DNA from: Eledone cirrhosa
Lineage: Eukaryota
NCBI GenBank assembly: GCA_964016885.1
Contig: OZ024742.1
Location: 361,832,001 to 361,896,000 of the forward strand
Direction of reading: 5' to 3'
DNA length: 64,000 bases
The position numbers and the translations under genes were made by a program. The notes beneath the pieces are model-generated. The model was not told the DNA's origin and ran no database searches. It saw nothing but the letters and a program-made list of their open reading frames with translations. Below, in pieces: positions 7,888-8,340 of this stretch. Each line of letters starts with the position of its first letter. Position 1 is the stretch's first letter.

Positions 7888-8340
7888 GTTAAAAGAATAG
7901 AGGTGTAACACACAAGTTATTTTATATTGGTAAACGGAATAGAAAATGCTGACAAATTGTTCACAGTTGAAAAATGGTTTAATTAGGAATAAAAGAGTAT
8001 TAGTGATTGTATGGGTTAGTATTCAGTTGTGGTTTTAAGTTTTTAAGTTTTTACCGGTTGCGCATTTCTAAATGCTTTTCAAAAATAATTTTGAGATAGA
8101 GTGTCCGTGCTGTTTGCTCTAATCTGAGCAAACATCACGGACGCTCTATCTCAAAATTATTTTTGAAAAGCATTAGAAATGCGCAACCGGTAAAACTTAA
8201 AACCAAAACTGAATACTAACCAATACTATTACTAATTCTCACTTATTCCTAATTAAACTATTTTTCACTGTGAACAATTTGTCAGCATTTTCTTTTCCGT
8301 TTAGCAACATAACTTGTGTGCTACACCTCTATTCTTTTAA
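7888..8340. mobile_element. Large fold-back unit, family H1
   Basis: Inverted arms of ~220 bp around GCTC-taatct-GAGC at ~8116-8129. (TA)n on both sides. Confidence 0.75.

What the first reader, a model, noticed from the sequence alone, without database searches (positions are those of the whole stretch)
8160..8195. Hammerhead variant with U3-A8 and a fixed GCAA in place of GAAA (family H1)
TTT-TTGAAAA-GCAT-tagaa-ATGC-GCAA-CCGG-TA-AAA has the same geometry as the H2 motif (8741-8778), with a covarying stem II. Core 2 is GCAA in all four arms that span it (~6390, ~8060 minus, 8183, ~45379), including a diverged arm. A13 is normally near-invariant. This is either a new active core variant or a family that spreads with a dead ribozyme.
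Basis: partly seen in the sequence, partly recalled or inferred. Interest (0 to 1): 0.7.

Follow-up and report, generated by a model that had tools for sequence, protein, structure and literature searches.

The report
Penelope hammerhead with fixed C13
About ten thousand copies of a Penelope-like jumping gene in this animal genome carry a small hammerhead self-cutting-RNA motif in which one normally fixed core letter has changed from A to C across the whole family while the rest of the motif is kept, so it is likely a slowed rather than a lost ribozyme, but cutting is untested.

Summary
[quoted passage not shown] C13 is the family norm: 3,972 of 4,046 exact matches, with GAAA in only 24. It is also in 87 of 90 copies chosen by flank alone, and in every subfamily seen, including the youngest (about 6,400 matches). 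Sister families keep GAAA, so C13 is derived. A run labelled as another organism holds a diverged relative that keeps C13 and differs within the motif only in loop II. That suggests selection on the motif (P about 0.004-0.06, depending on threshold). U3-A8 is published. I did not find a natural C13 in print, but could not read the most relevant paper (Lünse 2017). A13 changes are reported to cost 10-100-fold, and catalytic ribozyme mutants did not block Penelope insertion in vitro. A weak or dead ribozyme can therefore spread. This scan has noted other family-wide core changes in Penelope hammerheads on other DNA. Verdict: new variant of a known kind, activity untested, moderate-to-low interest.

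The parts
8160..8195 (+). Type I hammerhead motif, family H1, U3-A8 core with C13; predicted cut between 8192 and 8193
   Evidence: family counts
8184..8184 (+). C13, the fixed core change
8186..8191 (+). Self-complementary ACCGGT hexamer in place of helix III (predicted dimer helix)
   Evidence: cofold of two copies pairs it intermolecularly; invariant in 13 of 13 aligned motifs, which were picked by patterns holding it
8151..8166 (+). Predicted competing 6-bp hairpin that sequesters U3-A6 and the 5' strand of stem I
8124..8338 (+). Right arm: 5'-truncated pLTR stub of an older H1 subfamily, with the 30-40 nt tail, ending in (TA)n
7890..8120 (-). Left arm: inverted pLTR stub of the youngest H1 subfamily; hammerhead U3 at 8082, C13 at 8060
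6326..6515 (+). Another H1 pLTR stub; U3 at 6370, C13 at 6391; short inverted arm at about 6276-6325 that stops before core 2
45315..45545 (+). Another H1 pLTR stub with tail; U3 at 45359, C13 at 45380
8741..8778 (+). Sister family H2 hammerhead with canonical GAAA (inverted twin U3 at 8662 on -), used as comparator

Best explanation
This is the minimal hammerhead motif in the end repeat of a Penelope-like retrotransposon family in which A13 changed to C and became fixed, and it likely persists as a slowed ribozyme predicted to need dimer pairing and the element's own protein to cut. Shown: the motif sits about 1.15 kb after the stop of an RT + GIY-YIG reading frame and again about 210-240 nt before the next start. 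C13 is fixed in every subfamily seen, sister families keep A13, and the lineage went on transposing under protein-level selection while carrying C13. Inferred: the change arose once in the master lineage; two motifs pair through the palindromic ACCGGU to form helix III; C13 lowers the rate by one to two orders of magnitude; the weak stem I and a competing hairpin keep naked RNA uncut. Also inferred: the family spreads regardless, because uncut RNA is the template for insertion, and selection keeps the fold for slow or late processing of the tandem transcript.
For: Carrier: L062, L159 and L160 have the motif at both ends 4.8-4.95 kb apart, around RT (PF00078, E 8e-9) and GIY-YIG (PF01541, E 6e-6) frames. 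Fixation: C in 3,972 of 4,046, A 24, T 39, G 11 (letters counted by hand). C in 98 of 100 listed of 6,427, 95 of 100 listed of 412, 87 of 90 flank-selected copies covering the site and 29 of 30. Polarity: H2 98 of 100 listed GAAA, the other two being H1-type. Other U3-A8 families 99 of 100 listed GAAA. Only 18 C13 matches outside the H1 stem pattern, 13 of them H2-type point mutants. Constraint: in four runs, no position of the 25 non-loop motif positions differs in 4% or more of depth, against 21 of 95 flank positions and 3 of 5 loop II positions. Fisher P 0.004 at 4%, 0.023 at 20%. In run X4 (organism B) depth peaks about 70,000 over the motif, against 1,500-15,000 in most flanking bins. Cross-family covariation: 6 of 7 pairs with double changes, 85.7% cells paired against 33-48% for slid controls. 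ORF: 22 synonymous against 7 non-synonymous differences in 470 codons between old and young subfamilies. Literature: A13 mutation gives 10-100-fold inhibition, less than C3, G5, G8, G12, A14 or A15.1 (PMC4075628 citing earlier work). A Penelope hammerhead cut only with its protein, and catalytic mutants did not affect insertion in vitro (PMC11167929). Penelope min-HHRs are inactive as monomers and weak as dimers (PMC4209133).
Against: No cleavage data and no RNA run. A13 is a defining core position and 55 of 56 published representatives read GAAA, the other AGAAA. H1 stacks three handicaps: U3-A8, C13 and a stem I of three U-A pairs. The hammerhead-competent fold scores +1.6 kcal/mol against -7.3 for the alternative, with P(stem I) about 0, versus 0.33 for H2. 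However, canonical-core H3b also scores about 0, so this does not separate families. Within this genome alone the constraint is not significant (14 of 120 flank vs 0 of 25 motif positions, P 0.06). Synonymous distance between old and young subfamilies is only about 6% by my estimate. Neighbouring non-ribozyme stretches (e.g. the 15 nt before U3) are just as invariant. The thresholds for the Fisher tests were chosen after seeing the tables. Copies that begin at the predicted cut site are rare and not clearly enriched.
Confidence: 0.5

Rival explanations
1. The ribozyme is catalytically dead since A13C, and the sequence is kept for a non-catalytic job: a binding or folding signal for the element's protein, or part of the pLTR promoter.
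For: Insertion did not need cleavage in the one Penelope system tested. Naiad elements proliferate without canonical hammerheads (PMC8557442). The invariant block extends beyond the ribozyme. Stem I is marginal and masked by a predicted hairpin. Nearly all sampled copies run through the uncut site.
Against: All 11 other core positions, the stem II pairs and the palindrome stay as catalysis requires, while loop II changed repeatedly. A13 is among the more tolerant core positions.
Confidence: 0.28
2. The ribozyme is dead and under no selection; too little time has passed since A13C for the rest of the core to decay.
For: Within-genome subfamilies differ by only about 6% at synonymous sites, so about 1.6 changes are expected in 25 positions and 0 is unremarkable (my estimate). 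P 0.06 in the core-blind sample.
Against: Organism B contigs differ at 11-14 places over 85-88 nt, with motif changes only in loop II. P 0.004-0.023 with those data.
Confidence: 0.13
3. C13 is a fully compensated core: in the U3-A8 dimer context C13 works as well as A13.
For: The youngest, largest subfamily (median pairwise distance 1.8%; about 6,400 matches) carries it. Reversion to A has not spread (24 scattered copies).
Against: No compensating core change distinguishes H1 from H2 or H3, which share U3-A8 with A13. Published mutagenesis gives 10-100-fold loss.
Confidence: 0.09

Closest known systems
Minimal / short-helix-III type I hammerheads in pLTRs of metazoan Penelope-like elements, including the U3-A8 variant of Schistosoma Cercyon elements (Cervera and de la Peña 2014, PMC4209133; main text parts 1-2 of 4 and supplement file 2 parts 1-2 of 3 read)
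   Same: Type I topology, G10.1-C11.1, palindromic helix III, short helix I, position in both pLTRs of an RT-EN frame, thousands of truncated and inverted copies; the same UUGAAAA first box as S. mansoni(4).
   Different: C13 fixed family-wide (their alignment shows GAAA throughout, and their search descriptor holds the conserved core); no extra base between A9 and stem II; stem I only three U-A pairs.
Natural hammerhead core variants (Perreault et al. 2011, PMC3088659; passages and section 8 read, Figures S6/S7 not seen)
   Same: U3-A8 covariation; precedent for slow but active natural core variants (A6C, U15.1-A16.1, an insertion U13a in GAAA).
   Different: No substitution at position 13 named in the text read; those variants are single loci, not a fixed state of a 10,000-copy family.
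PAc Poseidon element of Anolis (Frangieh et al. 2024, PMC11167929; parts 1-2 of 4 read)
   Same: pLTR hammerhead, two reverse-transcription start points defining a 30-40 nt tail (H1 copies also end at two points), AT-rich targets.
   Different: Canonical core, ORF starting inside the ribozyme, Poseidon clade; H1 has the Neptune/Nematis-type zinc-finger linker and C13.
Small dimer-cleaving hammerhead variants of Penelope-like elements (Lünse, Weinberg, Breaker 2017; not held, nothing read; known only from its title and the review PMC6765202, passages)
   Same: Short stem III, Penelope association, cleavage as dimers (as described in the review).
   Different: Unknown: whether their alignments contain C13 could not be checked.

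Membership tests
Hammerhead ribozyme, type I minimal (PLE) | First core box with 3-8 pair (C3-G8 or U3-A8), U4, G5, A6, A9 | tested here: met
   UUGAAAA at 8163-8169; invariant except N7 in 13 aligned motifs picked by patterns holding this box
Hammerhead ribozyme, type I minimal (PLE) | Second core box G12 A13 A14 A15.1 | tested here: not met
   C13 in 3,972 of 4,046; G12, A14, A15.1 kept
Hammerhead ribozyme, type I minimal (PLE) | Helix II closed by G10.1-C11.1, with covariation | tested here: met
   4 bp; 3 of 4 pairs with double changes across families (H3 families have U-U at the first pair)
Hammerhead ribozyme, type I minimal (PLE) | Helix I of at least 3 bp flanking the core | tested here: inconclusive
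   Three U-A pairs in register, covarying across families, but predicted not to form in naked RNA
Hammerhead ribozyme, type I minimal (PLE) | Palindromic short helix III and U16.1-H17 site | tested here: met
   ACCGGU and GUA; intermolecular pairing predicted
Hammerhead ribozyme, type I minimal (PLE) | Score above threshold for an Rfam hammerhead model | tested here: not met
   No hammerhead family among 129 matches at E<=1; canonical-core H2 was missed too, so uninformative
Hammerhead ribozyme, type I minimal (PLE) | Site-specific self-cleavage after H17 | not testable with these tools
   No RNA run listed; genomic junction proxy inconclusive
EN+ Penelope-like element (Neptune/Nematis type) | RT followed by C-terminal GIY-YIG endonuclease | tested here: met
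   PF00078 and PF01541 on fragments from two copies; one 515-aa stop-free RT-EN stretch in L164; no copy examined had a whole intact frame
EN+ Penelope-like element (Neptune/Nematis type) | CX2-5CxxC linker finger and CCHH motif | tested here: met
   Read by eye in the translations of L061, L063, L164 against the description in PMC8557442
EN+ Penelope-like element (Neptune/Nematis type) | Direct and inverted pLTRs, 5' truncation, 30-40 nt tail, (TA)n targets | tested here: met
EN+ Penelope-like element (Neptune/Nematis type) | Placement in the Neptune or Nematis clade by RT phylogeny | not tested
   No named reference proteins at hand; nearest database relatives are 43-59% identical and mostly unnamed, the named animal hits being molluscs
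Non-LTR retrozyme | Non-coding head-to-tail tandem monomers each with a hammerhead | tested here: not met
   Copies are dispersed, single or inverted, and continuous with a coding element

The most novel reading that the evidence does not exclude
A natural, selected hammerhead with C at the near-invariant position 13 that still self-cleaves, tuned down on purpose (C13 plus a masking hairpin) so that the Penelope transcript stays uncut until the element's protein licenses cutting. H1 against its GAAA sister H2 in the same genome would then be a ready-made pair for testing what Penelope ribozymes are for.
Probability: 0.3. Interest if true: 0.6.

Novelty: new variant of a known kind. Interest (0 to 1): 0.36.

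Why it matters
Why Penelope-like elements keep hammerheads is open: they cut poorly in vitro and insertion did not need cutting in the one system tested. A large, recently active family with a fixed change at a core position, next to a sister family with the canonical base, gives a natural comparison. If H1 cuts, the accepted core consensus is too narrow, and GAAA-based searches miss whole families. If it does not, it shows a successful family keeping a hammerhead-shaped sequence for another reason. Either result is a useful data point for specialists rather than a new kind of system.

Tried and rejected
Rfam scan: no hammerhead hit for H1 or H2, uninformative. No RNA holder listed; this says nothing on expression.

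Genomic footprint of cleavage. For the youngest H1 subfamily, one search gave 225 matches; I examined 70 fetched loci drawn from the 100 listed (the first 30, plus 40 stretches picked for a longer upstream match). After dropping intact, slipped and duplicate rows by hand, 23 independent junctions fell in the A-run: 8 at the exact site, 5 and 6 at the neighbours, 2 and 2 further down. That is not significant by my rough binomial estimate (about 0.07) and is confounded by microhomology. For H2 (302 matches), 8 of 30 loci were at the exact site. Either way such copies are at most about 1% of each family. Searches were mis-designed (wrong offset) and served only as family totals and a core-blind sample.

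A GAAA ancestral subfamily inside H1 was rejected. The 12 GAAA copies fetched have mixed subfamily flanks, and L062 has C in one pLTR and A in the other. Independent C13 families were rejected for 13-nt stem-loops ending in the same palindrome; other stem lengths and C3-G8 cores were not searched. A MITE or foldback DNA transposon was rejected because the arms are pLTR stubs of an RT element and come from two subfamilies. Runs X5, X6, X8 and X9 gave 25, 6, 21 and 1 contigs resembling this genome's own subfamilies and were not used as independent evidence. No PDB relative of the protein.

Literature: nine searches found no natural A13C hammerhead; (A13C) returned 0 papers. Not held: Lünse 2017 and four other look-ups. 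Not seen: the per-variant data of PMC9901934, Perreault Figures S6/S7 and supplement file 1 of PMC4209133; any of these may bear on novelty or on the effect of A13C.

Full report
Observation. The motif is present exactly as described at 8160-8195, with U3 at 8163, C13 at 8184 and the predicted cut after 8192. A relaxed descriptor found three H1 arms with GCAA, two H2 arms with GAAA and one unrelated loose hit. The fourth H1 arm (U3 at 45359) was missed because its stem I has only two pairs; it was read directly. The finding lies in the right arm of a roughly 450-bp palindrome (7890-8338) between (TA)n tracts. The two arms are not twins: the left belongs to a younger subfamily with an extra T in stem-loop II and a duplicated 8-mer.

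What carries it. Copies extend upstream into a shared 3' region and then the end of a reading frame. Longer stretches show RT and GIY-YIG domains with a CX4CxxC linker finger and a CCHH motif, read by eye, which PMC8557442 describes for Neptune and Nematis elements. L062, L159 and L160 hold the motif at both ends, 4.8-4.95 kb apart, and L163 has an inverted upstream arm. In L062 the upstream motif lies about 210 nt before an ATG, and the downstream one about 1.15 kb after the stop. Copies end in (TA)n at two points about 40 nt apart, the known Penelope tail. Nearest database proteins are 43-59% identical, and the named animal hits are molluscs. None of the copies examined had a whole intact frame. 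The window's pieces are therefore truncated pLTR stubs of a Penelope-like retrotransposon.

Is C13 the family state? Yes. Of 4,046 exact matches with position 13 free, 74 were not C: 39 T, 24 A, 11 G. That spectrum fits scattered later mutation. A second subfamily gave 6,427 matches with 98 of 100 listed C, and a third 412 with 95 of 100. Because these patterns fix the core, I also drew 100 copies by a downstream flank alone. Of the 90 covering the site, 87 had C, and no core position had a shared alternative in 9 or more copies; the highest was C to T at the CpG in the palindrome, in 8. Median pairwise distances are 6.5%, 4.8% and 1.8% within the three subfamilies, and 13.8% between oldest and youngest (30 copies each). 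Old and young coding regions differ at 22 synonymous and 7 non-synonymous codons of 470. The lineage therefore kept transposing, recently and abundantly, with C13.

Polarity. H2 (13,920 matches to a pattern that also catches some H1) has GAAA in 98 of 100 listed. Further U3-A8 families with U or C at position 7 (983 matches) have GAAA in 99 of 100 listed. A search for C13 with a different fourth stem pair gave 18 matches: 13 H2-type, 3 H3-type, 1 H1 double mutant and 1 other. C13 is thus derived and specific to H1 among the families searched. Across 13 hand-picked motifs from these families, stems I and II covary. Six of 7 pairs change on both sides, and 85.7% of cells are paired against 33-48% for slid partners. 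The structure was read from these sequences, so the controls lean in its favour.

Is the motif under selection since the change? Contigs of run X4, labelled as another organism, lay on the H1 reference with 11-14 differences over 85-88 nt. Within the motif they differ only in loop II (99%, 15% and 85% of depth at three positions), with no row at C13 at depth about 66,000. Pooling four runs, 21 of 95 flank positions vary at 4% or more (15 at 20% or more), against 0 of 25 non-loop motif positions: P 0.004 and 0.023. Against this reading, the within-genome core-blind sample alone gives P 0.06. Selection on the motif is likely but not proven, and selection on the sequence does not prove catalysis.

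How it most likely works. Established: metazoan Penelope hammerheads of this shape are inactive as monomers and weak as dimers (PMC4209133). U3-A8 is a known natural and active pair (PMC3088659). A13 changes cost 10-100-fold, less than six other core positions (PMC4075628, second-hand). In the one reconstituted system the ribozyme cut only with the element's protein, and catalytic mutants inserted normally (PMC11167929). Computed here: two H1 motifs pair through ACCGGU. The monomeric hammerhead fold is disfavoured by about 9 kcal/mol relative to a hairpin that masks U3-A6, more than in H2 (about 2) but similar to canonical-core H3b (about 9). Inferred: H1 RNA mostly stays uncut and serves as template, which explains why nearly all copies read through the site, and residual protein- or dimer-assisted cutting keeps the core under selection (0.5). 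The rivals are a dead ribozyme kept for another role (0.28), a dead one not yet decayed (0.13), and a fully compensated one (0.09). A search for copies starting at the predicted cut site was inconclusive.

Comparison and novelty. It works like a Penelope minimal hammerhead and is plainly descended from one, but it fails the GAAA feature. I therefore file it as a variant of untested activity, not as a confirmed ribozyme. Nine literature searches found no natural C13. The paper most likely to hold one (Lünse 2017) could not be read, so 'not in print' is provisional. Hammerhead numbering and the role of positions are recalled convention, checked against PMC3088659. Earlier notes of this scan report U3-A8 in a repeat family of this genome and other family-wide core changes in Penelope hammerheads elsewhere. 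These notes are unchecked, but they suggest such fixed changes recur. None matched this sequence or the words GCAA/A13 together.

Verdict. A real feature and a new variant of a known kind; interest 0.36. It would rise to about 0.6 if natural H1 RNA is shown to cut in a regulated way.

Noticed in passing
window 7890-8338: The two arms of the palindrome come from different H1 subfamilies (youngest on the left, an older one on the right), implying a template switch between two RNAs or insertion against an older copy.
   Followed up: partly
33-49 nt upstream of U3 in H1 and H2 (e.g. window 8120-8124, 6326, 8700-8704): 5' truncation and inversion points cluster at a homologous site in both families: 37 of 119 H1 and 16 of 30 H2 loci start at -33 to -49. 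It lies at the base of a possible upstream hairpin and may mark a transcript start or RT stop.
   Followed up: partly
L060:7649-7776 vs L070: H1 and H2 align (73%) from -96 up to the predicted cut site and not beyond, while the H1 endonuclease is closer to an H3 family (74%, L321) than to H2 (about 50%). H1 may be a mosaic, but this is untested.
   Followed up: partly
L309-L338: Other U3-A8 Penelope hammerhead families in this genome have a U-U mismatch at 10.1-11.1 and the same palindrome; one of them pairs stem I poorly.
   Followed up: partly
L171-L200, L237-L258: The youngest subfamily has a tandem 8-mer duplication (up to four units) directly after the predicted cut site.
   Followed up: no
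L010, L016, L019, L034, L037, L057, L060, L061: Several further hammerhead families with canonical CUGANGA/GAAA cores and TATATA, CTAG or TGCA palindromes lie in the same (TA)n neighbourhoods.
   Followed up: no
window 130-909 (+) and 2592-3143 (-): Fragments that look like other GIY-YIG endonuclease genes by eye; the first had no Pfam hit.
   Followed up: partly
window 29746-32784, 34152-37526, 49070-51763, 54038-59993: Long reverse-transcriptase frames of non-LTR retrotransposons, up to 1,124 aa, some in near-identical pairs.
   Followed up: no
L269: A junction joining an inverted H1 piece directly to an H2 piece, i.e. cross-family joining.
   Followed up: no
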